64,000 nucleotides of DNA, from NCBI GenBank assembly GCA_000004985.1, contig GG738868.1. One strand, given 5' to 3'. The DNA comes from Naegleria gruberi. Its lineage: Eukaryota. The notes beneath the pieces were generated by a model that ran no database searches, was not told where the DNA came from, and worked only from the letters and a program-made list of their open reading frames with translations. This document shows, one piece after another, positions 6,618 to 63,946 of this stretch. The first letter of the stretch is position 1. Each line of letters starts with the position of its first letter. The translations under genes were made by a program, and so were the position numbers.

Positions 6618-9600
6618 TTAGGATCTCCAATATTGAGCCCATCTGTGGATATTTTCCATGAGTTGAGGGAAGAGAGCTTTTTCACTTTCATTGATAATAC
6701 TTTGCATGTAGACGTTTGCTTCTTGATCATTTAGGTCAAGTTTAAACTTTTCCTGAACTTTCATGATATTTCTAATAGGATCCATACCTGCACCATGTTC
6801 CAAATCACGAATATTGGCATCAATCATGAGAATAAACATGTTCAAAATCAAGTGAGCCGACTTTCTCAAAATATTGTAAGCAGTCACACATAGCTCCTTA
6901 AATTTGATGTAACCTTCACTCTTACTTCCTCCCATACCTTCTACCATTTCCTTGCAGAGTTTCATTGGGGGAGGGAATGGTTTTGGATCTCTGCCCATAA
7001 TGAAACCAAAGTCAATGTGGAACATTAATCCTTGAGCTGTAATCAAGACATTGTCCAAGTGTCTATCACCAATACCAAGAATGTATGTAATGACACAATA
7101 GCCTGCACAGCTTTTAACAAAGTTTTGACAGGCAGTGTGGTAATCCTCATCCTCTGTGTTATTCTTTCTGAGCCAACCTCTAATATCTCCCTTATCAATA
7201 ACTTGAGCCAAAGCAGAGCAATTTGGTACGCACTCCAAACATCCAAAACTTGGACTGAAAGCCAATACAGAATATGGTGTAAGTTTCAAGTCCAAACCAT
7301 TGTTCTTCAAAAGTTTGTCCATAAGTAAAATCAATTGCATGACCAATTGATCTTGTCTCAAATCATCACCATTCTTTACAATTACACTATACTTGGCGCC
7401 ATTAAGATCAGAGAATGGAATCATCAAAGGACTTTGAGCACTCTTAAAGATGGTGGAATCCTCAGCAAAGATACCATTAACTTTAACTTCAGGATTGAGA
7501 GGTAATGGCAATGGTTCCTCAGGATAGTTCTTTGAAATATTGGAAAGGAAAATCTCAGTCCATGTGTATTGTTCCTTACTATCAAATTGAATGTTTGGAA
7601 TCTCACCCTTTGCAGACAATATCTTTTTAAAGATGGTAATCTTTTCTGGACGAGATAATTTAAGACCTTTCATGTATGAACCAATCTTGCTGAGAGTTTC
7701 AACCATTCTTCCTTGTCTGATAAGCTTTTCAAGGAAGAGAGGTGAATTCTTTTTAAGATGGATAAAGAATTTGTGTCTCATTTCCAAGAAATGTTCTCCA
7801 TACTTTGGATCTTCAGTTTCAACTGCCAGATACCAATTCAAATTGTTGGCAACATTGAAGTTTACACTTGCACGATCCAAAAGGAAAAGAGCCAATTCAG
7901 ATTCATGCAATTTAACTGAGCTAACCTCAATTTCATATCTCAAAGCTTGAACCAATTGTAATAATACATCCAAAATAGCTGCGTCATCAGCCTTTCTTAA
8001 AATATCTACAGCGTAGTCTCTGACAGCCTTTACATTCTTGAACAATCTTGAAAGCAATTCCAAAGCATCGACAGTATCGATCTTGTCCCATTGTGGAATT
8101 AATTTTTCAGCTTCCTTCTTTTGAGCCAAGTAGTTCCAATCGACACATCTCAAGAATTTAGTCAAGGCACGTTTGTTTGATCTCAAGTAGTATCTGTATC
8201 TCCACAACAAACTCTTGTCTTCTGTTGGCATTTCATGAAGCGGAGGATATTCCAATACTTTTTGTATCTTTCTTGTTTCTATGGCGTTTGGTTTGAGGTT
8301 GGTATCAATGAGACCACTTGATAAATTAATACTGAGTTTCAAGTGTTTTTCTTCTGCCAAGTTGGTTTGTTTGGCTTCAGGATCATCAATAAATTGATAC
8401 TTGGTACTAACAATCTCGAATCTGAAGTGATCCTTGTCAGAATCTTCGGAATATGGTACAGGGATAGTTGGTTTAACTTTTTTAGGGATAGGTGTTGGGA
8501 GATTTGGGAAGTAGGTAAAACCACTACAGAATGATGTGGCCAATTCATCACTAGTAGTTGCCAAATAATCAAAATCAACAACTCTTCTATCAAAAGTAGG
8601 AATTTCAATATTCAAAAATGTGTCAAGTGAGGATGAATTGAATTTCTTTTCTCTCAATTGTTCCTTCTTGGTAACTGTGAATTTATCCAACCACGATAAA
8701 TTAGATGTACTTGATGGGATGTCAGTTGTTTCATTAATATTGGAATTTCCAGATTTGTCAGCCTTGTCAGGTTTATCAGAGTTATTTGCCTGAGTGAATT
8801 GATTTAAATAAATGGAAATATTACTATTTTTTGGAATTGAGTTAATTTGTCCAGTAGTTTGTTTAGCATAAGCTTCAAGTTTTTCAACTTTTGCCAGTTC
8901 ATCTCTATAAAGTTTTGTACTATAATCTTCATTCAAAATTTCGTCAACATTCTTATGAGGATGAAGTGGAATTCTATATTTACCAAACTTCAGTCTTCCT
9001 TTCTTACCAAAAAGTGGTAAATAACTACTTCCAATAACAACTCTTTGTGTTGGAGAATAGACATCATAAATTGTGAAACATAATTTAGCCTTTGATGGAA
9101 TTTCATTAAATTTCACAGGAAATTGAATCCACTCATCCCATTGTCTTCTTCCCTCACGTAAAACAACATGACCTGTTGAACTTGGTACACAAATATCAGT
9201 GCCATCCTCAAAACAAAGTGTACATTCAACATACATATCCGTAAATGGACAACCAATAAGTGATTGATATTCATCATCATCTGCTCCATATTTATGATAA
9301 TAATTAGAAAAGTGTTCAAATAAATTTCCCTCCAAACATTCACTATTAAATTATAATTGTGCAATAATAAATAAACTACTATGATGACTACTATGATACT
9401 CACATTTTCACTTGAAATTGTTGATCAACAATATCGGCAATATTATAATAATATTGCAAATTAAAATTATCTGTTGATAAATTAGAAATATTTGGTAGAT
9501 TTTGTTGTTGTTGTGTATTATTGACTCCTGCTTCATCATTGATTGTCATGACACTATTCGTAGTAGTATTATTTGATATTTCATCCAATGTTCTCAAATC

Positions 9601-56097: not shown

Positions 56098-58121
56098 TTA
56101 TTGTACTAAACACTTCTTTGAATGAGATTTACCATAATTTTCATCTCTACTGATTGCAATTGCTTTCAATATAATTTCACTCAAATCATCAAAACCATAT
56201 CTTTTTTTTGAGCTAGTTTCAATATAAGTTATACAACCTATCTTTTTAGCCATCAACTCTCCTTCTTCAAATGTGATTGGATTTGTATCATATTTGAGAA
56301 GAAAAATTGGATCAGTGCGATAGTCAACCTTATTATTCACCAATATAATAGGTGTATCAGGACAGTGATGTCTAATTTCTGGAATCCATTTGAGTGCAAC
56401 ATTGAAAAATGAATTTTCTGCTACGCAACTAAAGCTCAGTAAGAATAGAGATGTATCTGGATAATTCTATTAATCAATTAGTCAACTGATAAGATAGGTT
56501 ATTACTTACCAATGGACGTAAACTATTGATATTGAAAAATATTGAAATATATAAAACAACCTACCAATCATAATCTAAAATCGATGAGTAGAAATAAGTA
56601 TTTTCATAACTACTTACCTTCAGGACCAGCAGTATCCCTTTCAAATGTCAATTATTCATATTGACTCAATAAAACTTACCATAGACCAATTAAATAACTC
56701 TTTCCCTCAACTCTGACACTCAAATCATAATTATCAAATATTGTTGGAATGAACTCTTCTGGATAGCTACCTGTAGCATATGTAATATATAATGATGTTT
56801 TACCAACTGATCCATCACCAACCTGAATTATCTTTTCACTTGCAGGAGGTGAATATTTTTCTAACATTTCATTCATTTGAGAGTATTGTAAAATTTCAGA
56901 TGATTTTGAATAATGTTTACCATCTAAACGTTGTGTTGCTTTTCTAATTGTCCGTATTCTTTTAGAATTCTTCTGTTCAACTTTTGACAATATGGATTGA
57001 ATTGTTTCAATTAGAATTTGTCTAAAATTTGATGTTTTAAGTAAATTTAATTCAAATAGATTTGCTTGAGAGAAATATTTTGATGCAATTTTAAATTCCT
57101 TCATCTTTTTTAAATAAAAATCTTTCCAAAATTGATCTTCACTTGTTAATTCACAAATTCTTAATGATTTGGAAACTAAATGTAATTTCATTAAATCTTG
57201 AATATTAAGAAATAATAGAATTGATCTTAAAATATCATCATTCAGATTCTTGAATAGTTCAATATTAAATGAAAATGTCAAAATGTCACAAGTCATTTGA
57301 AATCCTCCAAATATAAAATAATTAAATGAAGAATCAATGGGAATTTGAACTAAAGTGTGGAGACATGGTCTAGCTACTTCCTTATCATTGAAAATATTCG
57401 AAAGTGAATGATTTTTTTCAATTTTCCAACCTTCACTAATATTTTCCAAATCAAGACATGTACAATCTGTGAAATCTTGATTTAGATTACAACCACCAAT
57501 ACTATATAACTTATTTCCTTCCAAAACCATTGAATGTCCATATCTAGCAAAATTATCATTCAAAATAATCTCAGCTTGACATTTGACATTTCCAACATTT
57601 TCCAATGAATCAAGTGAAATCTTAATTGTATCCTTAATAATTGAATCATAATTTCTACCACCATGTATATACCACTCTCCTGTTTCATTATTTAACACGG
57701 ATGCATGATAATATCGATGTGAAATTACTTCTTGACTTGAATCAATTTCCACTCTTGTCCATTCCATATTTGTAAAATTAAATTTAAATAATTCATTTGA
57801 TGCAAAATAATTTTTACAATTATATCCACCAAATATAAATAATTGATTTTTAAAAATTACACTTGAATGACCATATAAAGGTGGAATTAATCTATCTTTG
57901 GAATTTAATTGTTTCCATGAATTATTTGTAAATTCATATATCCAAATATCATTATGAAAACTATTAATAGATTTACCTCCAAATAAAATCATTTCATTTG
58001 AATTTCTTAAATTGGTAGTATGACAATTTCTTGCACATGGAATTAATTTTTCTATTGAATGATTCGGATCAGTTAATATTGTTAAATTTCTCCATTTTTT
58101 AGTTGTAATATCAAATTTCAA
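56098..58121 (-). CDS. Kelch-repeat / F-box-like / Rho-family small GTPase fusion (exons 56680..58121, 56618..56637, 56565..56574, 56510..56522, 56098..56466)
   Basis: Continuous ORF with >=5 Kelch blades (LFGG/IFGG/IHGG/SIGG/IFGG plus W positions), then an F-box-like DDILRSILLFLNIQDLMKLHLVSKSLRI. It continues without a stop into the Rho G1-G3 region KIIQVGDGSVGKTSLYITY...FIPTIFDNY...LWDTAGPE. Four introns (42, 43, 42, 43 nt; GTAAGT/GTAGGT donors) and two micro-exons (10 and 13 nt) close phase to give ...DTAGPEDYDCLRPLNYPDTSLF...NNKVD...TSSKK...KKCLVQ(stop). Q61 is replaced by P, the conserved switch-II Arg by Cys, and CLVQ is a CAAX box. Confidence 0.65.
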
Positions 58122-58405: not shown

Positions 58406-61400
58406 TTATTCATTTCCATTTCCATTAATTTGAACATATTGTTGTAAAATAGTATCGATTGGAATGTCAGGATTTCCTTTTCCTTTTTGAAAAGTTTCTT
58501 CATCTTGATAACGTTGATGTAAAATGTGTGCAATCATTCTATTATATTCCTTTTTAAATTCAATTCCAATTAATTTAATATAATAAAATAAAATAAATGC
58601 TAATAAACAAATTGAATAAATTGACATTTGAATTATAAATGTTGAATAAACTGAATGAATTGAATCAACAAGTAAACAAATTAAACATCCAGGTATAGTA
58701 ATTACTATATTAATTATAAAAGTACCAATTAAAGGAATGTATGAATTTGTATAATTATGTGATAAAATAAACATTTGATAACAATTCATAAAAACATAAA
58801 TAATACTACTTGTAAATGATACAATCCAATATTGTTGTATTATTTGATCAATATTTTTAACTATTGTTGAATCTGATGTTAATTTAACTCCTTCCATTAC
58901 TATATTTGTAATATCAGTTACTAAATATATACAAATAAATATTAAAGTTATAATTAAAAGTAATAAAATTGATTTAATATTTAAATAAATTAATCCTTTG
59001 TAATTTAATCTATTTATACATCTTCTACTATATATAGTAATTAATGAATTTCCTAATAAACAAATTTTAATATAAATTAAACTATAACAAGTAACAATAA
59101 TAAAAGAAATAAATTCACTTGTAGAATAATTATAATAAATTATAATTGAATTAATTATATAAATTATTAAAGTTGAAAATGAAAATCCAAATATAGTTAA
59201 ATAATTTCCAATTAATCTTTTAAAAATAAATTTATCAAATTTAAAAAAATCATTATTATAAAAACAAAAACATGAAATTCCCTTTTTAGTAAATAACATT
59301 AATAAAATTGAAATTATTAATGGAAATAAATATGAAATTCCATAAATTAATGAAATATAATAATAAATTTTATCATTAAATGCATGAATAATTTCTGATT
59401 TTGGAATTAATAAAAATACTATATATAGTAATACACCAAATATAATTGTAAAATAAACATGAACAAAATTATAAAAAGCAATAAAAATTGAAATAAATAA
59501 TAAAATAAAATTATAAAATAAAATATTACTAATATTAAAATAAAATATAAATTCCCAAACTGTTGATCTATTTATAGCATAAAATATTCCAAAACTGGCA
59601 GCATATTGTAAAATACTTGATAAAAATGTTAATATGAATGAAATTAAAACAATTTTACCAATAAAAGAATTTGATAAAAATAATTTTGAATTTTGAATAT
59701 CAAATAATTCACGATGATAATAATATTTAAATATATTCATTCTATAATTAGTAATATCCATAAATAGATAAATAATAATTGGATACATGAAAATTAATTC
59801 TAAAATTAAATTAATTGTAAATAAAATAATAAACATTAAAGAACTATCATTATCAATAATATTAAAAGTATTATTAATTAAATATTTTGTACTAATAAAT
59901 GTCATGATAAAAATAGATGAAATTAAAATAAATAATTTTGTAATTGAACTTCCATGTGAATATTCTTTAAATGAAGGATGAACAATTAATGATGACATTG
60001 GTTCTGATTTTCTCATTAACCAATCATTTTCATCAAATTCATTAGAATCTTCTGAATCTGAATTATCATTTTCAATATTTAATAGTGATGTACTACTATT
60101 ACTATTCCACCTCCACCAACACCACCTCCACCTCCACCAACCACCAAATATACTATTAGATGATGTTAAATGTTGTGATCTAATATTTGAATGATTTGAA
60201 TGATGATTATTTGGATGAATGGATTGTTCTTGTGAAATGGATTGATAATATTCATTAAATGCCTTTTCCTTAATTGAACTTTGAAAGTTTTGTTTCACTA
60301 CCAACATTGAAATATCACTCATTAGAGATTGATTATTACTATTATTATTATTATTGGAATGTAAATCTTGAAATGCCTTATCCAATGGATTTGTCTTTTC
60401 AATTGGTGCTAAAAGTTGAATTTTTTTACGTTGAGTTGAATTGATAGAATTTGATCGTTGTTCAAAATCTTGATTATTATTAACATTTGAATTTTCATTC
60501 TTTTCAGTTGACATGATAAAGAATGAAGTAATATCATCAATAACCAATGATTGTTCTGAGGTTTCTTCTTTTTTAGATGAGGAGAATGAATTCATTTTTC
60601 TTGTTGTACTTGTTGAGAGAGCACTGAATGAACTTGATTTACCTGGTAATTGATTAATTGATTTCTTTGTTGATTTTACAACAACTTTAACTTCATCTTC
60701 ATCATCATCATCATCGTAATGATCATAAACTTGTCTCTGACCTAAATATTGAGATTCCTCTCTGGCCAATTGTTCATCCTTTAAAACATTCATATCAACT
60801 TCATCATCATTATTTTCATTATTATTATTACTATTATATTTCATTAGACTTGATAATTGTTGTGCAATGTCCATTCCATTTCTAACAGATTGACGATTAT
60901 TCATTACAATGGCATTGGAATTATAATTTTTAGAACTTGCATCTAAAATATCTGGAATTGAAGACATGGTACTCATATTCTCATCAGTTAAACGATCATC
61001 TTCATCATCCTGATCATCTCCACCATCTTGATCATCATCCTGATCATCATCATCATCATCGTCACTTGATGCTTCAGTCATTTCATTACTCGTTGGGAGA
61101 ACATCAAGAAATTGAATGGATTGATTCACTTCTTTAAATTTATCAATCCACTTGAACATTTCATCTGAATTATTAGTCTTTAAATATAATACTCTCTTTT
61201 TTGTTACAATTTTAAATATATTAAATTCATTCTTAAATTCATTAAAACATTCAACAATAATTGATTTATCAATATTTAGTGATCCCTTCTTTTTCTTCTT
61301 TTTTTCATCGGTATAATAGGTTAATTCAGATTCATCATGAAATACAAAATATCTACGTTTCCAACTCTTTACAATTTTACCTTGTTTTTGTAAAAATCCT

Positions 61401-61762
61401 TCAATATGTACATCTTTCTCATTATTATTGTTAGAATTAGAAGAATTATTAGTACGAATATTACGACTATTACGATTATTATTGTTATTATTTGATGATG
61501 AATTATTGTTATTATTACGAAGCCTAAAACTTGAAAATATTGATTGTTGATTGGATGAGTTTCCAATATTATTATTAGATGATGATGGTGTAGTATTAGA
61601 TGATTGATTAAAAGAAGATTCATCCTGTCCACCCAATGTAACCACTGGTAAATTATTGATGGTATTTCTCTGATTGTTGGGATTCATTGGAGTGGATAAA
61701 TTATTGAAATCATCATTGGTACGAAATGATGAGGTTGTTGAATGAAAGTCATCATTATCCAT
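58406..61762 (-). CDS. PH-domain protein with acidic linker and C-terminal polytopic (>=12 predicted TM) membrane domain; unknown family
   Basis: 1118-aa ORF, implausible by chance in ~85% A+T DNA. N-terminal N/S-rich region, then a PH-like domain (HIEGFLQKQGKIVKSWKRRYFVFHDESELTYYTDEKKKKKKGSLNIDKSIIV...FKIVTKKRVLYLKTNNSDEMFKWIDKF). An acidic D/E/Q block and a (WRW)n juxtamembrane motif follow, then ~550 aa of I/F/Y/L-rich predicted TM helices. Confidence 0.6.
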   Translation of the reverse strand: MDNDDFHSTTSSFRTNDDFNNLSTPMNPNNQRNTINNLPVVTLGGQDESSFNQSSNTTPSSSNNNIGNSSNQQSIFSSFRLRNNNNNSSSNNNNNNRNSRNIRTNNSSNSNNNNEKDVHIEGFLQKQGKIVKSWKRRYFVFHDESELTYYTDEKKKKKKGSLNIDKSIIVECFNEFKNEFNIFKIVTKKRVLYLKTNNSDEMFKWIDKFKEVNQSIQFLDVLPTSNEMTEASSDDDDDDDQDDDQDGGDDQDDEDDRLTDENMSTMSSIPDILDASSKNYNSNAIVMNNRQSVRNGMDIAQQLSSLMKYNSNNNNENNDDEVDMNVLKDEQLAREESQYLGQRQVYDHYDDDDDEDEVKVVVKSTKKSINQLPGKSSSFSALSTSTTRKMNSFSSSKKEETSEQSLVIDDITSFFIMSTEKNENSNVNNNQDFEQRSNSINSTQRKKIQLLAPIEKTNPLDKAFQDLHSNNNNNSNNQSLMSDISMLVVKQNFQSSIKEKAFNEYYQSISQEQSIHPNNHHSNHSNIRSQHLTSSNSIFGGWWRWRWCWWRWNSNSSTSLLNIENDNSDSEDSNEFDENDWLMRKSEPMSSLIVHPSFKEYSHGSSITKLFILISSIFIMTFISTKYLINNTFNIIDNDSSLMFIILFTINLILELIFMYPIIIYLFMDITNYRMNIFKYYYHRELFDIQNSKLFLSNSFIGKIVLISFILTFLSSILQYAASFGIFYAINRSTVWEFIFYFNISNILFYNFILLFISIFIAFYNFVHVYFTIIFGVLLYIVFLLIPKSEIIHAFNDKIYYYISLIYGISYLFPLIISILLMLFTKKGISCFCFYNNDFFKFDKFIFKRLIGNYLTIFGFSFSTLIIYIINSIIIYYNYSTSEFISFIIVTCYSLIYIKICLLGNSLITIYSRRCINRLNYKGLIYLNIKSILLLLIITLIFICIYLVTDITNIVMEGVKLTSDSTIVKNIDQIIQQYWIVSFTSSIIYVFMNCYQMFILSHNYTNSYIPLIGTFIINIVITIPGCLICLLVDSIHSVYSTFIIQMSIYSICLLAFILFYYIKLIGIEFKKEYNRMIAHILHQRYQDEETFQKGKGNPDIPIDTILQQYVQINGNGNE
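60107..60146. repeat. CCACC(T/A) simple-sequence repeat inside the CDS, encoding a Trp/Arg-rich motif (WWRWRWCWWRW) on the minus strand
   Basis: Plus strand reads ccacctccaccaacaccacctccacctccaccaaccacca. Reverse-complement codons TGG/AGG/TGT give the W/R repeat just upstream of the first TM segment. Confidence 0.6.
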
Positions 61763-61971
61763 TTTTTAACGTCAATGATTTTAAAATCATAATCAAATAA
61801 TTATTAACATTTGACAGTTATTATAATTTTAAATATCTCTTTAATATCAAAAATATCATTCCTTTCTCTCTTAATACTAGAATCTCAAGTCTTAGCAATA
61901 ATTAACAATTCTATAGCTTAAATTAAAGCCTTCAATAATGAAAAGAAAAATTCCGAAGGCTTTGAAAAAAA

Positions 61972-62418
61972 ATGTCTGAAGAAATAACCTCAACTACCAC
62001 CACAACTAACGTTCAAGAATCATCAAGTTCCGAATCAACCTCATCGGAAGTTATTACCATCACAGTTAGATTAATTAAAAGTTTCCATTATAGAAATATT
62101 AAATTATTAATCTTGAAGGATATTAAAGTAAATGAATTAACTGGAAATGATTTATTGAAATTAGTTTTGGAAAAGATTGAAAAGGAATCAGGTTTGCTTC
62201 CACATCGTGGACGTAAATATGATACATTTAAATTATATCATCATGCCTTTTCGTTTAAAGCAAATAATTTAGTTGTTAATTTACAAGATGATGATAAATT
62301 AATCTTTAAAATGGATAAAACTTTGAAGGAAAATAATGTTGATAATGAAGCTGAAATTAGTTGTTTCATTATGGATGAATATTTGGAATTCAAGAAAAAT
62401 CCAGAATTGAAATGGTAA
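61972..62418 (+). CDS. Small conserved protein, UPF0538 (C2orf76-like) family candidate
   Basis: 148-aa ORF. The core ITVRLIKSFHYRNIKLL...YDTFKLYHHAFSFKANNLVVNLQDDDKLIFKMDKTLKENNV...EISCFIMDEYLEFKKNPELKW follows the pattern I recall for UPF0538 proteins (TVRLIRSFEHRN...YD.LKI.H.A...LV..L.DD..L...TL...E.EI..F...DY..YK.NP...W). Confidence 0.45.
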   Translation: MSEEITSTTTTTNVQESSSSESTSSEVITITVRLIKSFHYRNIKLLILKDIKVNELTGNDLLKLVLEKIEKESGLLPHRGRKYDTFKLYHHAFSFKANNLVVNLQDDDKLIFKMDKTLKENNVDNEAEISCFIMDEYLEFKKNPELKW

Positions 62419-62422
62419 AAAC

Positions 62423-63202
62423 CTATTTCTTTTGAATTAAATCTAAAAATTGTACTAGAGAAATAAACAACTCTGGTTTTTCTTCCTTTTCCTCACCTGA
62501 ACTTGAATCCTCTTCTTCATCTACTTTGAAAAATTCACTATCATTTCCTTCTGATTTAACTTTTTTAGGAGGAGGTTTTTCATTCTTCTTAGTGGGAGAA
62601 TTTTTAGATTTCTTCTTTTCCCATCTTTTCATTTGAAGATTATATTCCTCCTCTCCCAAAATATGTTTTACAAATAAATCAAACTCTGTTTCACTTTTTA
62701 ATTGATCAACTCCCATTTCAAATAACAGCTTTTTCAATGCTTTAATTGGTATATATCGTTCTCCAAAACTATTCAAAACAAAGAATTTTGCAAATATATC
62801 CTCATAATCGACATCTTTTTCCAAATCATATTGTCTACTCAATATATCAAGAAAATCACCAAATGTAAAGAATTCATCACCAGATTTTAAATGTTGATTG
62901 AAATGAAACATTAATTGATCACTGGTCGGTGCTGCTCCACATAATCTCAAACATTCTGCCAAGTCCGAATAAATATTTAAAGCCTTAATGTTTTTTTGTT
63001 TTTGTTTTCTATCGACAAGAACTCTCTGATAAACTCTTTCATAGTTTTGAATTTTGGCTATTGAAAATTGAAAGAGTGATTTGTTTCTATCCATATAATT
63101 TCCACCAATCCTTGTTAGTGAGGGAGAAGGAGTTGGACGAGAGGATGATGTTGATGAAGTTGAAAAAGTAGGAGTAGATGAAGCCTTGATAAAGGATGAC
63201 AT
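62423..63202 (-). CDS. EF-hand-like protein of uncertain family with an S/T-rich N-terminus and a K/E-rich C-terminus
   Basis: 259-aa ORF. A possible EF-hand loop/helix pair around ...QHLKSGDEFFTFGDFLDILSRQYDLEKDVDYEDIFAKFFVLNSFGERYIPIKALKKLLFEMG. Low confidence in the family. Confidence 0.4.
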   Translation of the reverse strand: MSSFIKASSTPTFSTSSTSSSRPTPSPSLTRIGGNYMDRNKSLFQFSIAKIQNYERVYQRVLVDRKQKQKNIKALNIYSDLAECLRLCGAAPTSDQLMFHFNQHLKSGDEFFTFGDFLDILSRQYDLEKDVDYEDIFAKFFVLNSFGERYIPIKALKKLLFEMGVDQLKSETEFDLFVKHILGEEEYNLQMKRWEKKKSKNSPTKKNEKPPPKKVKSEGNDSEFFKVDEEEDSSSGEEKEEKPELFISLVQFLDLIQKK

Positions 63203-63388: not shown

Positions 63389-63946
63389 TTATTGTAAAAC
63401 AATTTCCATTAAATAACAATCTTTACATTCATTTTCAGGTAATCTATCATTAATATAAAAGTTTTCAAGCTTTTTAATATTCTTAAAACCAATCTTTTCA
63501 TAAAATTGAATTGCACTTTCATTTGTGCATTGAACATGAAGATGACATCTATCAATTGAAAACTTTTTACAAATTTCAAAAACTTTGGAAATTAATTCAC
63601 GACCAATTCCTAACTTTCTATATTTTGGTAATACACCTAATAACATTAAATAAATTGATGGATTTCCTTCACAAGAATCAACTCTACATGAAAAACTTCC
63701 GACTGGTATATCATTGAAAATTGCAAATTGATTAAATTCTGGTCCTTTTTGAAGTATTTGTTCATATACAGATTCTCTGTATTTAATTGGATAAATATAA
63801 TTATTTAAAATCTTTAATTGTTCAATATTCTTATCAATAATTCCCAACAAGCGTAACTTTTGATTCTCTCCAAGCTTTTTTTGACTGCTATGTGATGAGA
63901 AGAATGAACGATGGTCAATTAAATTGGCTTGATTAGTAGTAGTCAT
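63389..63946 (-). CDS. NAA50: N-alpha-acetyltransferase 50 (NatE catalytic subunit, GNAT fold)
   Basis: 185-aa ORF. IEQLKILNNYIYPIKYRESVYEQIL...FAIFNDIPVGSFSCRVD...IYLMLLGVLPKYRKLGIGRELISKVFEICKK...CHLHVQCTNESAIQFYEKIGFKNIKKLENFY is collinear with the human NAA50 acetyl-CoA-binding motifs. Confidence 0.75.
   Translation of the reverse strand: MTTTNQANLIDHRSFFSSHSSQKKLGENQKLRLLGIIDKNIEQLKILNNYIYPIKYRESVYEQILQKGPEFNQFAIFNDIPVGSFSCRVDSCEGNPSIYLMLLGVLPKYRKLGIGRELISKVFEICKKFSIDRCHLHVQCTNESAIQFYEKIGFKNIKKLENFYINDRLPENECKDCYLMEIVLQ

What the first reader, a model, noticed from the sequence alone, without database searches (positions are those of the whole stretch)
58406..61762. PH domain fused to a large polytopic membrane domain (1118 aa) with no recognisable family
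The ORF combines a phosphoinositide-binding-type PH domain, a D/E/Q-rich acidic linker, a (WRW)n juxtamembrane stretch and ~550 residues of predicted TM helices (>=12 hydrophobic spans). Lipid-binding domains fused to multi-pass membrane modules occur in channels, scramblases and lipid transporters. I could not match this one to any named family from the sequence alone. Its expression would be notable in an organism with a lipid-dependent lifestyle. The gene lies head-to-head (210 bp) with the small UPF0538-like gene.
Basis: partly seen in the sequence, partly recalled or inferred. Interest (0 to 1): 0.6.

Follow-up and report, generated by a model that had tools for sequence, protein, structure and literature searches.

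The report
Amoeba PH-domain protein with orphan membrane domain
This is a real Naegleria gruberi gene (not fungal) encoding a lipid-binding PH domain joined by a long floppy linker to about 12 membrane-spanning helices of no known family; the public annotation wrongly removes the membrane part as introns, and the only detectable relative is in the sister amoeba Willaertia.

Summary
Window 58406-61762 (-) is one 1118-codon ORF: PH domain (aa 118-211), acidic tract, WRW run, and about 12 hydrophobic helices (aa 604-1070). The window is Naegleria gruberi, not a fungus, so the "lipid-dependent lifestyle" remark falls.

New finding: the public 671-aa gene model removes 447 residues of the membrane domain as two in-frame "introns" of 1029 and 312 nt. 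They are almost certainly false.
- The 14.8% GC stretch has 0 in-frame stops, against 38-81 in the other frames.
- It shows codon-position structure.
- The splice sites are unlike the genuine 42-43-nt GTAAGT introns next door.
- Willaertia magna has a single-exon ortholog with the same PH-linker-membrane layout.

The membrane domains are homologous beyond composition (z = 15-23). Rare residues are conserved (27 identical, 3.1 expected).

The membrane domain matches nothing in Pfam, NCBIfam or PDB. A scan of 1.84 billion proteins found only Willaertia. AlphaFold failed on it (pLDDT 39), so its fold is unknown.

Inferred function: a phosphoinositide-reading integral membrane protein. It may be an Ist2-like tether, or a lipid-regulated transporter or channel.

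This is a lineage-restricted orphan family plus an annotation correction, of moderate interest.

The parts
58406..61762 (-). Complete single-exon coding sequence, 1118 codons plus stop: PH domain, disordered linker, 12-TM domain, C-terminal tail
   Evidence: ORF list. aa 1-604 and aa 1072-1118 are identical to the annotated N. gruberi protein P0002. The single-exon ortholog in Willaertia magna has the same layout.
61412..61762 (-). N-terminal Asn/Ser-rich low-complexity extension (aa 1-117), absent from the Willaertia ortholog
   Evidence: Composition N 32%, S 20%. It falls in an alignment gap.
61130..61411 (-). PH domain (aa 118-211) with the basic beta1-beta2 signature K126...K135-R136-R137-Y-F
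   Evidence: Pfam PF00169 E 1.9e-17. PDB relatives are TAPP1, DAPP1 and myosin-X. AF2 gives 7 strands plus a helix. Foldseek top 50 hits are all PH domains. It is about 60% identical to Willaertia, with the signature kept.
59954..61129 (-). Long linker (aa 212-603), mostly predicted disordered, carrying short conserved motifs
   Evidence: AF2 pLDDT below 50 with only short isolated helices. The islands conserved with Willaertia are listed.
60992..61069 (-). Acidic D/E/Q tract (aa 232-257)
   Evidence: Translation. Willaertia has an acidic/Asn-rich tract at the same place, but the sequence is not conserved.
60734..60805 (-). Conserved linker motif D-x-VD-x-N-x-LKD-x-x-L-x-x-EE-x-x-YL-x-QR (aa 320-343)
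   Evidence: Invariant columns D320...R343 in alignment A1. BLASTP of the PH + linker region gives E 6e-42.
60515..60535 (-). Conserved linker motif DITSFFI (aa 410-416)
   Evidence: Seven consecutive invariant columns.
60365..60415 (-). Conserved linker motif L-x-x-PIEK-x-NPL-x-x-AF-x-D (aa 450-466)
   Evidence: Invariant columns L450...D466.
60107..60139 (-). WWRWRWCWWRW run (aa 542-552) encoded by a GGTGG/TGGAGG simple repeat; specific to N. gruberi
   Evidence: DNA read. Absent from Willaertia.
58553..59953 (-). Orphan polytopic membrane domain (aa 604-1070), about 12 helices, 14.8% GC, coding strand 49% T
   Evidence: Hydropathy. Stop and shuffle statistics. Codon-position composition. 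Homology to Willaertia aa 407-825: phmmer E 2.9e-5 over 1.84e9 proteins, Smith-Waterman z 22.8 and 14.9. Rare-residue conservation 27 against 3.1 expected. No Pfam, NCBIfam or PDB hit.
58921..59949 (-). 'Intron 1' of the public 671-aa model (1029 nt, GTTCAA...TTTAG); judged to be coding sequence
   Evidence: Junctions reconstructed. Length is a multiple of 3 with no in-frame stop. Codon-position chi-square p = 5e-17. Genuine neighbouring introns are 42-43 nt and start GTAAGT.
58550..58861 (-). 'Intron 2' of the public model (312 nt, GTTAAA...AAAAG); judged to be coding sequence
   Evidence: (chi-square p = 5e-4). It aligns to Willaertia TM helices 10-12, including FI-Q--IYS.
58406..58552 (-). 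Basic then acidic C-terminal cytosolic tail (aa 1071-1118) and stop codon
   Evidence: Identical to the C-terminus of P0002. Y1073, M1076, A1078 and H1079 are conserved with Willaertia.
61763..61971 (.). 209-bp divergent intergenic spacer shared with the DUF2340/UPF0538 gene (61972-62418, +)
   Evidence: 21% GC. The arrangement is not conserved in Willaertia.

Best explanation
Shown:
- Window 58406-61762 (-) is one uninterrupted Naegleria gruberi gene.
- It encodes, in order: a low-complexity N-terminus; a canonical basic PH domain; a linker of about 390 residues, largely disordered, carrying three short conserved motifs; an all-helical membrane domain of about 12 TM helices; and a short charged tail.
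- The same architecture exists as a single exon in Willaertia magna, so this is a conserved vahlkampfiid gene family.
- The public 671-aa N. gruberi model, which splices out 447 residues of the membrane domain, is a gene-prediction artefact. It was probably triggered by the 13-18% GC of that stretch.

Inferred:
- With an even number of helices and a cytosolic PH domain, both termini face the cytosol.
- The PH domain binds an anionic phosphoinositide. Its closest solved relatives bind PI(3,4)P2/PIP3, and N. gruberi is reported to have class I PI3K.
- The long flexible linker lets the PH domain reach a phosphoinositide-rich membrane up to tens of nanometres from the membrane holding the TM domain. 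The protein would then work like yeast Ist2: multipass anchor, disordered linker with partner-docking motifs, terminal lipid-binding module. It would tether or position its home membrane at a contact site or at PIP-rich cortex and recruit partners through the conserved linker motifs.
- Conserved intramembrane polar residues (E655, K899, K930, D950, Q996, Q1045) and three conserved prolines suggest the membrane domain has a transport, channel or scramblase-type activity of its own rather than being a plain anchor.

My separate estimates: gene structure about 0.93; phosphoinositide binding about 0.7; tether (trans) mode about 0.35; regulation in the same membrane (cis) about 0.3.
For: Coding status of the membrane stretch:
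- 0 in-frame stops against 38-81 in the other five frames; 467 open codons against a maximum of 122 in 2000 shuffles.
- Codon-position composition: chi-square p = 5e-17 and 5e-4; third-position G+C 3.8%.
- Both annotated introns are multiples of 3 and have GTTCAA/GTTAAA donors. Genuine introns 2 kb away are 42-43 nt and start GTAAGT.

Ortholog:
- Willaertia magna KAL9645922.1, 847 aa, one 2544-nt exon.
- Its membrane part is 8.5% GC, with 0 in-frame stops against 36-82 in the other frames.
- That annotation used RNA-seq and protein hints (PMC11702301).

Homology:
- PH + linker: BLASTP E 6e-42.
- Membrane domains: score 472 against 162 +/- 14 for shuffles (z 22.8); block-shuffle z 14.9.
- 33.5% identity against 11.2% expected; rare residues 27 identical against 3.1 expected, maximum 11 in 5000 permutations.

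PH domain. K126 and R137 align with the K and R of DAPP1's KQGGLVKTWKTR segment. From memory these are K173 and R184, the inositol-phosphate ligands.

Linker disorder.

Class I PI3K reported in N. gruberi: PMC3823935.

Ist2 architecture and its linker docking motif: PMC8282664.

Charge bias of internal loops fits N-in/C-in: K+R inside/outside 6/3 in N. gruberi and 8/2 in Willaertia.
Against: - No transcript or peptide evidence for the N. gruberi membrane region could be examined.
- The family has only two known members, so conservation statistics rest on one pairwise comparison. The rare-residue test used an optimised alignment.
- The phmmer E-value for the membrane domain alone is modest (2.9e-5).
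- Function is entirely inferred. The membrane domain has no family or fold assignment.
- Its composition (about 80% L/I/F/N/Y/K in Willaertia, with very little Gly, Ala or Val) is unusual for a working transporter. It would also fit a weakly constrained hydrophobic anchor.
- PH lipid specificity cannot be read from sequence, and many PH domains bind lipids weakly or bind proteins.
- Nothing shows which membrane the protein sits in, so trans-tethering and cis-regulation cannot be separated.
- The positive-inside signal is weak.
Confidence: 0.6

Rival explanations
1. The public 671-aa model is right. The AT-rich stretch consists of two real introns (1029 and 312 nt), and the protein is a soluble PH-domain protein with at most one short hydrophobic exon.
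For: This is the deposited N. gruberi gene model. GT...AG boundaries exist. GC drops to 13-18%, below even the flanking intergenic DNA at 20-21%.
Against: - No in-frame stop in 467 codons, where about 50 would be expected.
- Both 'introns' are multiples of 3.
- Strong codon-position structure.
- The donors are unlike the local GTAAGT consensus, and the lengths are 7-25 times those of the neighbouring real introns.
- The stretch aligns residue by residue with the coding sequence of a single-exon Willaertia gene.
Confidence: 0.04
2. The membrane domain is a highly diverged member of a known transporter, channel or scramblase superfamily (for example MFS, APC, DMT or TMEM16-like). Its sequence signal has been erased by extreme AT-driven compositional drift, and the PH domain simply makes a conventional carrier respond to phosphoinositides in its own membrane.
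For: - About 12 helices is the commonest transporter layout.
- Charged and polar residues and prolines are conserved within helices.
- The strong compositional bias can blind HMM searches.
Against: - No hit to Pfam, NCBIfam or PDB profiles even at E<=10 for either species.
- An exhaustive HMMER scan found nothing beyond Willaertia.
- No 6+6 internal repeat (hhalign probability 0.2%).
- Gly, Ala and Val are scarce.
- The fold could not be tested.
Confidence: 0.25
3. The membrane domain is essentially a bulky, weakly constrained hydrophobic anchor that arose from, or was remodelled by, thymine-rich DNA downstream of an ancestral PH-domain gene. Its only job is to fix the PH domain and linker scaffold to a membrane.
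For: - The coding strand is 49% T, and the domain is 8.5-14.8% GC, the lowest of any long ORF in the window.
- Residues with AT-only codons dominate.
- The domain is restricted to Naegleria and Willaertia as far as searches reach.
- Thymine-rich sequence readily encodes TM segments (PMC7005711).
- The PH domain and linker motifs are better conserved (about 60% identity in the PH domain) than the membrane domain (33%).
Against: - Twelve helices kept collinear over a genus-level divergence, with 27 conserved rare residues including an intramembrane Asp, Glu, Lys and Gln and three Pro, is more constraint than an anchor needs. One helix would anchor as well.
- Known de novo TM proteins are short.
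Confidence: 0.15

Closest known systems
Yeast Ist2 (TMEM16-like ER-plasma membrane tether)
   Same: A multipass membrane domain joined by a disordered linker of several hundred residues to a terminal module that binds plasma-membrane lipid. The linker carries a short conserved motif that docks a partner, Osh6/7 (PMC8282664; PMC12617493). Here the linker is about 390 residues in N. gruberi and about 300 in Willaertia, with three conserved motifs.
   Different: - The order is reversed: here the lipid binder is N-terminal.
- The lipid binder is a folded PH domain, not an amphipathic or basic helix.
- The membrane domain gives no anoctamin/TMEM16 Pfam match.
- Localisation and tethering are untested.
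TAPP1 / DAPP1 / myosin-X PH domains (3-phosphoinositide-binding PH domains)
   Same: These are the best solved-structure sequence matches to the PH domain (E 7e-11, 4e-8 and 3e-13). The spacing of the beta1 Lys and beta2 Lys/Arg-x-Arg signature is identical. The fold is confirmed.
   Different: Those are soluble adaptor or motor proteins, and none is fused to a membrane domain. Lipid specificity here has not been measured.
ORP5/ORP8 and GRAMD1/Lam (Aster) proteins
   Same: They are integral membrane proteins that use a PH or PH-like (GRAM) domain to reach phosphoinositide- or PS-rich membranes at contact sites (from my own knowledge of these families).
   Different: They have a single TM anchor and a dedicated lipid-transfer domain (ORD or VASt). 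No such domain is detected here, and the anchor has 12 helices.
Willaertia magna KAL9645922.1 (hypothetical protein ABK040_001031)
   Same: It is the true ortholog and the only other family member found: PH domain, linker motifs (DITSFFI, PIEK-NPL--AF-D, L--EE--YL-QR), a 12-TM domain and a charged tail.
   Different: It lacks the N-terminal Asn/Ser extension, the long poly-Asp tract and the WRW run. It has shorter loops and is even more AT-rich (8.5% GC). Its neighbouring genes are different.
De novo membrane proteins from thymine-rich DNA (e.g. yeast Ybr196c-a)
   Same: A T-rich coding strand gives Phe/Leu/Ile/Tyr-rich TM segments, and the phylogenetic distribution is narrow (PMC7005711).
   Different: The known cases are single short ORFs with one or two TM segments. 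This one is a 470-residue, 12-helix domain conserved between genera and fused to an ancient domain. No ancestral non-coding state was examined.

Membership tests
PH domain (Pfam PF00169) | Sequence matches the family profile above the curated threshold | tested here: met
   64.1 bits against a cut-off of 25.1, E 1.9e-17, profile positions 1-102 of 105.
PH domain (Pfam PF00169) | Seven-stranded beta-sandwich capped by a C-terminal helix | tested here: met
   AF2 model: strands E19-27, 36-43, 47-51, 59-64, 69-71, 82-87 and 91-97, then helix 100-113, with pLDDT about 58-67. All 50 top Foldseek PDB hits are PH domains, target-normalised TM-score about 0.6.
Phosphoinositide-binding subclass of PH domains | Basic beta1-beta2 signature: Lys at the end of beta1, then Lys/Arg-x-Arg-hydrophobic-hydrophobic in beta2 | tested here: met
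   K126 ... K135-R136-R137-Y-F has the same 11-residue spacing as DAPP1's KQGGLVKTWKTR. It is kept in Willaertia as K..KKRYF.
Phosphoinositide-binding subclass of PH domains | Measured high-affinity binding to a specific phosphoinositide | not testable with these tools
   This needs liposome or lipid-overlay binding assays, or live-cell probe localisation.
TMEM16/anoctamin (Ist2-type) membrane domain | Anoctamin domain detectable by profile | tested here: not met
   No Pfam hit in aa 590-1118 of either species at E<=10. No PDB profile hit.
TMEM16/anoctamin (Ist2-type) membrane domain | Ten-helix TMEM16 fold | tested here: inconclusive
   The AF2 model has pLDDT 39 and pTM 0.22, so it is unusable. 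The helix count of about 12 is only approximate.
Ist2-like tether (functional class, not a sequence family) | Multipass anchor, long disordered linker and terminal lipid-binding module | tested here: met
   Architecture. Linker pLDDT is below 50 over about 390 residues.
Ist2-like tether (functional class, not a sequence family) | Localisation at membrane contact sites and tethering activity | not testable with these tools
   This needs imaging and genetics.
Known transporter superfamilies (MFS, APC, ABC, DMT and others) | Profile match to any curated transporter family | tested here: not met
   Pfam and NCBIfam give 0 families at E<=10. PDB hmmsearch gives 0. An exhaustive phmmer scan finds only the Willaertia ortholog.
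Known transporter superfamilies (MFS, APC, ABC, DMT and others) | Internal structural repeat (e.g. 6+6) | tested here: not met
   hhalign of the N-terminal half against the C-terminal half: probability 0.2%, E 0.27. BLASTP of the halves: E 0.43.
Genuine N. gruberi spliceosomal introns (as claimed by the public model) | GTAAGT-type donor, short length, no reading-frame conservation | tested here: not met
   Donors are GTTCAA and GTTAAA, and lengths are 1029 and 312 nt, both multiples of 3. There are 0 in-frame stops and codon periodicity is present. Real neighbouring introns start GTAAGT and are 42-43 nt.
De novo thymine-rich-derived membrane proteins | T-rich coding strand and narrow taxonomic distribution | tested here: met
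   49% T and 14.8% GC. Only Naegleria and Willaertia were found.
De novo thymine-rich-derived membrane proteins | Orthologous non-coding sequence in an outgroup | not tested
   No outgroup heterolobosean genomes are reachable with these tools.

The most novel reading that the evidence does not exclude
The roughly 470-residue, 12-helix membrane domain is a true evolutionary novelty of vahlkampfiid amoebae. On this reading it was built from thymine-rich, nearly GC-free DNA appended to an ancient PH-domain gene, and has since been moulded into a functional phosphoinositide-coupled membrane machine (a new fold of tether, scramblase or channel). It would be by far the largest membrane domain known to have arisen in this way.
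Probability: 0.12. Interest if true: 0.75.

Novelty: new variant of a known kind. Interest (0 to 1): 0.42.

Why it matters
1. It corrects a public gene model. The reference N. gruberi proteome lists a soluble 671-aa PH protein where the genome encodes an 1118-aa integral membrane protein. The same failure, where gene finders treat extremely AT-rich TM-coding sequence as intron, probably hides other membrane proteins in Naegleria, including the pathogen N. fowleri.

2. It defines a lineage-restricted family with an architecture I know from no other organism: a PH domain, a long disordered linker and 12 TM helices. This suggests a heterolobosean solution to coupling phosphoinositide signals or membrane contact sites to a multipass membrane module, analogous to but unrelated to fungal Ist2.

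3. The membrane domain is conserved yet only 8.5-15% GC. That makes it a useful case for asking how far mutational bias can reshape, or create, polytopic membrane proteins.

Tried and rejected
- The search for homologous proteins on the membrane half returned only the truncated self model, because the word prefilter saturated at 8000 candidates. Two further searches with PH/linker queries returned nothing, not even the self model (translation verified). Orthologs in N. fowleri, N. lovaniensis and N. clarki could therefore not be looked for.
- Two metagenome scans and one viral-contig scan with family patterns produced 600 pattern matches each. None was confirmed.
- AF2 on the membrane domain with the two-sequence alignment gave pLDDT 39 and pTM 0.22. 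I deliberately ran no fold search on it, because the matches would be meaningless.
- No internal duplication of the membrane domain was found.
- No shared neighbours between the N. gruberi and Willaertia loci, so gene context gives no functional hint.
- Considered by eye and rejected:
  - DITSFFI as a FFAT (VAP-binding) motif. The residue after FF is Ile, where FFAT needs Asp/Glu or a phosphorylatable Ser/Thr (my knowledge of the motif; no score computed).
  - A GT-C glycosyltransferase reading based on the acidic first external loop (NIIDNDSS). That loop is deleted in Willaertia.
  - The WRW run as a functional interfacial anchor. It is a non-conserved simple repeat.
- The positive-inside analysis is consistent with an N-in/C-in topology but too weak to count as proof.

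Full report
**1. The observation**

Window 58406-61762 on the minus strand is a single ATG-initiated ORF of 1118 codons.
- Pfam places a PH domain at aa 118-211 (PF00169, E 1.9e-17, 64.1 bits against a 25.1-bit cut-off).
- The translation shows the poly-Asp/Gln/Glu tract at aa 232-257 and the WWRWRWCWWRW run at aa 542-552.
- A Kyte-Doolittle scan shows a dense series of hydrophobic spans from aa 604 to 1070.
- The small gene 209 bp upstream on the other strand (61972-62418) is DUF2340/UPF0538 (E 4.5e-43).

The membrane region is nearer 470 than 550 residues.

**2. The organism**

The neighbouring GNAT acetyltransferase ORF (63389-63946) is an exact match to Naegleria gruberi XP_002677269. The first 604 residues of the ORF are identical to a N. 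gruberi 'predicted protein'. The window is therefore from a heterolobosean amoeba.

**3. Conflict with the public gene model**

The deposited protein (P0002) has 671 residues. It equals ORF aa 1-604, then a 20-residue micro-exon (an Ile codon formed across the splice junction, plus ORF aa 949-967), then ORF aa 1072-1118.

Reconstructing the junctions gives two GT...AG 'introns':
- 1029 nt, window 58921-59949, GTTCAA...TTTAG
- 312 nt, window 58550-58861, GTTAAA...AAAAG

Together they delete 447 residues, almost the whole hydrophobic domain. This stretch is also where GC collapses to 13-18%, against 26-29% in the rest of the gene. The key question is therefore whether the membrane domain is translated at all.

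**4. Evidence that it is coding**

- The 1401-nt stretch (14.8% GC; 49% T on the coding strand) has no stop in the ORF frame. The other five frames have 49, 52, 81, 38 and 68 stops. In 2000 shuffles the longest open run in any frame averaged 58 codons and never exceeded 122, against 467 observed.
- Both 'introns' are exact multiples of three.
- Base composition depends strongly on codon position. In 'intron 1', position 2 is 52% T, and G+C is 23% at position 2 but 3.8% at position 3. Chi-square p is 5e-17 for 'intron 1' and 5e-4 for 'intron 2', and the period-3 signal is 13.9 times background.
- The Rho-type GTPase exons of the gene immediately downstream contain genuine introns. Three donors all read GTAAGT, and the two introns I could delimit are 42 and 43 nt. 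The related heterolobosean Acrasis kona has introns of 9-95 bp (PMC11589745). The annotated introns match neither the donor consensus nor the size.

**5. The ortholog**

An exhaustive HMMER scan of the membrane half against 1.84 billion representative proteins returned only the truncated self model and one other protein. That protein, P0003, is 847 aa and matched at E 2.9e-5, with query residues 7-491 aligning to its residues 407-825.

P0003 is Willaertia magna KAL9645922.1. Willaertia is described as closely related to Naegleria (PMC6892926). The gene is called as one 2544-nt exon, in an annotation built with BRAKER2 from RNA-seq and protein hints (PMC11702301).

It has the same architecture:
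- an N-terminal PH domain, about 60% identical, with the basic signature kept
- a linker with three conserved islands: D-x-VD-x-N-x-LKD...EE--YL-QR, DITSFFI and L--PIEK-NPL--AF-D
- a long hydrophobic domain and a charged tail

BLASTP over PH + linker gives E 6e-42. Its membrane-coding stretch is only 8.5% GC yet has 0 in-frame stops, against 36-82 in the other frames.

The two membrane domains are homologous beyond shared composition.
- Smith-Waterman score 472, against 162 +/- 14 for residue shuffles (z 22.8) and 195 +/- 19 for shuffles within 20-residue blocks (z 14.9).
- Identity 33.5% against 11.2% expected.
- Among residues other than I/L/F/Y/N, 27 are identical against 3.1 expected, with a maximum of 11 in 5000 permutations. 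These include 3 of 5 Pro, one of two Trp, D950, E655, Q996, Q1045 and four Lys.

Both annotated 'introns' fall inside this collinear alignment. I conclude with high confidence (about 0.93) that the 1118-aa single-exon reading is right and the public model is an artefact.

**6. What the parts are**

*PH domain.*
- The best solved relatives by sequence are myosin-X PH2, the TAPP1 C-terminal PH domain and DAPP1 (E 3e-13, 7e-11 and 4e-8).
- K126 and K135-R136-R137 align with the Lys and Lys-x-Arg of DAPP1's KQGGLVKTWKTR. From my own knowledge of the DAPP1/Grp1 structures, these are the inositol-phosphate ligands K173 and R184.
- An AF2 model of aa 100-599 gives seven strands and a C-terminal helix at pLDDT about 58-67. 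All 50 top Foldseek PDB matches are PH domains.

*Linker.* In the same model it stays below pLDDT 50, with only short isolated helices. This is consistent with disorder punctuated by short linear motifs, although the alignment has only two sequences.

*WRW run.* It is encoded by a GGTGG/TGGAGG simple repeat and is missing from Willaertia. I treat it as a species-specific repeat expansion.

*Membrane domain.*
- No Pfam, NCBIfam or PDB profile match in either species, even at E<=10.
- No internal 6+6 repeat.
- AF2 from the two-sequence alignment failed (pLDDT 39, pTM 0.22). It suggests only about 12 long helices, so I ran no fold search on it.
- With 12 helices and a cytosolic PH domain, both ends would be cytosolic. 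The K+R counts of internal loops (inside/outside 6/3 in N. gruberi, 8/2 in Willaertia) agree with this but are weak.

**7. A compositional oddity**

The membrane domain is by far the most AT-rich long ORF segment in the window. Its minimum 600-nt GC is 12.2%, against 23.8% or more for the 39 other open stretches of at least 150 codons. It is even below the flanking intergenic DNA at 20-21%.

In Willaertia, 80% of its residues are L, I, F, N, Y or K, which can all be encoded by codons made only of A and T. Ala, Gly and Val are scarce. This probably explains why the N. gruberi gene finder called the stretch intronic.

It also raises two possibilities. The domain may be weakly constrained. Or it may owe its origin to thymine-rich DNA, which readily encodes TM segments (PMC7005711). 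Against a mere anchor stand the 12 collinear helices and the conserved intramembrane polar residues and prolines.

**8. Most likely mechanism (inferred)**

I read this as an integral membrane protein that reads phosphoinositides through a PH domain held on a flexible leash of about 300-390 residues.

The closest working analogue is yeast Ist2: a multipass ER membrane domain, a long disordered linker that spans the ER-plasma membrane gap and carries a conserved Osh6/7-docking motif, and a terminal plasma-membrane lipid-binding element (PMC8282664; PMC12617493). Here the order is reversed, the lipid binder is a PH domain, and the membrane domain is not TMEM16-like by sequence.

Class I PI3K has been reported in N. 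gruberi (PMC3823935), so a PI(3,4)P2/PIP3 ligand is plausible. PI(4,5)P2 or PI4P cannot be excluded.

Two modes remain open:
- trans-tethering to a PIP-rich membrane, about 0.35
- cis-regulation or recruitment of the membrane module within a PIP-rich patch such as a pseudopod, phagocytic cup or macropinosome, about 0.3

Nothing here tells which membrane holds the protein.

**9. Rivals**

- The annotated spliced model is correct: about 0.04, for the reasons in sections 4 and 5.
- The membrane domain is an unrecognisably diverged member of a known transporter or channel fold: about 0.25. This cannot be tested without more sequences.
- It is a weakly constrained, thymine-derived anchor: about 0.15.

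**10. Novelty and verdict**

The gene is catalogued only as a mis-modelled 'predicted protein', and I found no literature on it. The architecture of a PH domain, a long disordered linker and 12 TM helices is not one I know from any characterised protein, and the membrane domain is an orphan shared only with Willaertia.

Lipid-binding modules leashed to membrane anchors are a known kind of system, so I class it as a new variant of a known kind. Orphan families are common in Naegleria-like protists. In Acrasis kona, nearly a third of predicted proteins have no BLAST hit (PMC11589745).

Interest is moderate at 0.42. It rests on the annotation correction, the unusual architecture and the extreme composition of a conserved coding domain. 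It is tempered by the complete absence of functional data.

**11. Dead ends**

- The two remaining word-indexed protein searches returned nothing, not even the self model. Other Naegleria species could therefore not be examined.
- Metagenome and viral scans found no relatives.
- There is no synteny with the Willaertia locus.

Noticed in passing
window 56100-58121 (-): The gene immediately downstream combines a Kelch beta-propeller (aa 2-275), an F-box (aa 291-337) and a Rho/Ras-type GTPase. The GTPase exons are split by short GTAAGT introns (42 and 43 nt), and the protein ends in a CaaX-like KKCLVQ. A Kelch-F-box-GTPase fusion is an unusual architecture.
   Followed up: partly
window 61972-62418 (+): DUF2340/UPF0538 gene (PF10209, E 4.5e-43), head-to-head with the PH-membrane gene across a 209-bp spacer. 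The pairing is not conserved at the Willaertia magna locus.
   Followed up: yes
window 62423-63202 (-): A 259-aa ORF with a Ser/Thr/Pro-rich N-terminus and a Lys/Glu-rich C-terminus has no Pfam match at E<=1. Its stop codon lies 4 nt from the stop of the convergent DUF2340 gene, so there is almost no 3' intergenic space.
   Followed up: no
window 63389-63946 (-): A GNAT-family acetyltransferase identical to N. gruberi XP_002677269 / EFC44525.1. This match identified the organism.
   Followed up: yes
window 60107-60139 (-): The Trp/Arg run is encoded by a GGTGG/TGGAGG simple repeat of about 64% GC inside a 25% GC gene. Read one base out of frame, it would be a poly-Gly linker. The flanks are in the ORF frame, so no frameshift is needed.
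   Followed up: partly
window 58500-60000, and L001:9219-10475: Conserved coding sequence at 12-15% GC in N. gruberi and 8.5% GC in W. magna is lower than the adjacent intergenic DNA (20-21%). If gene finders routinely call such stretches introns, other polytopic membrane proteins may be truncated in Naegleria proteomes.
   Followed up: partly
L001 (Willaertia magna JBEGDK010000136.1, 34225-52768): The neighbours of the Willaertia ortholog are ORC5, an Aa_trans amino-acid transporter, WD40 and ankyrin proteins, and several ORFs with no Pfam hit. None matches the last 20 kb of the N. gruberi window.
   Followed up: partly
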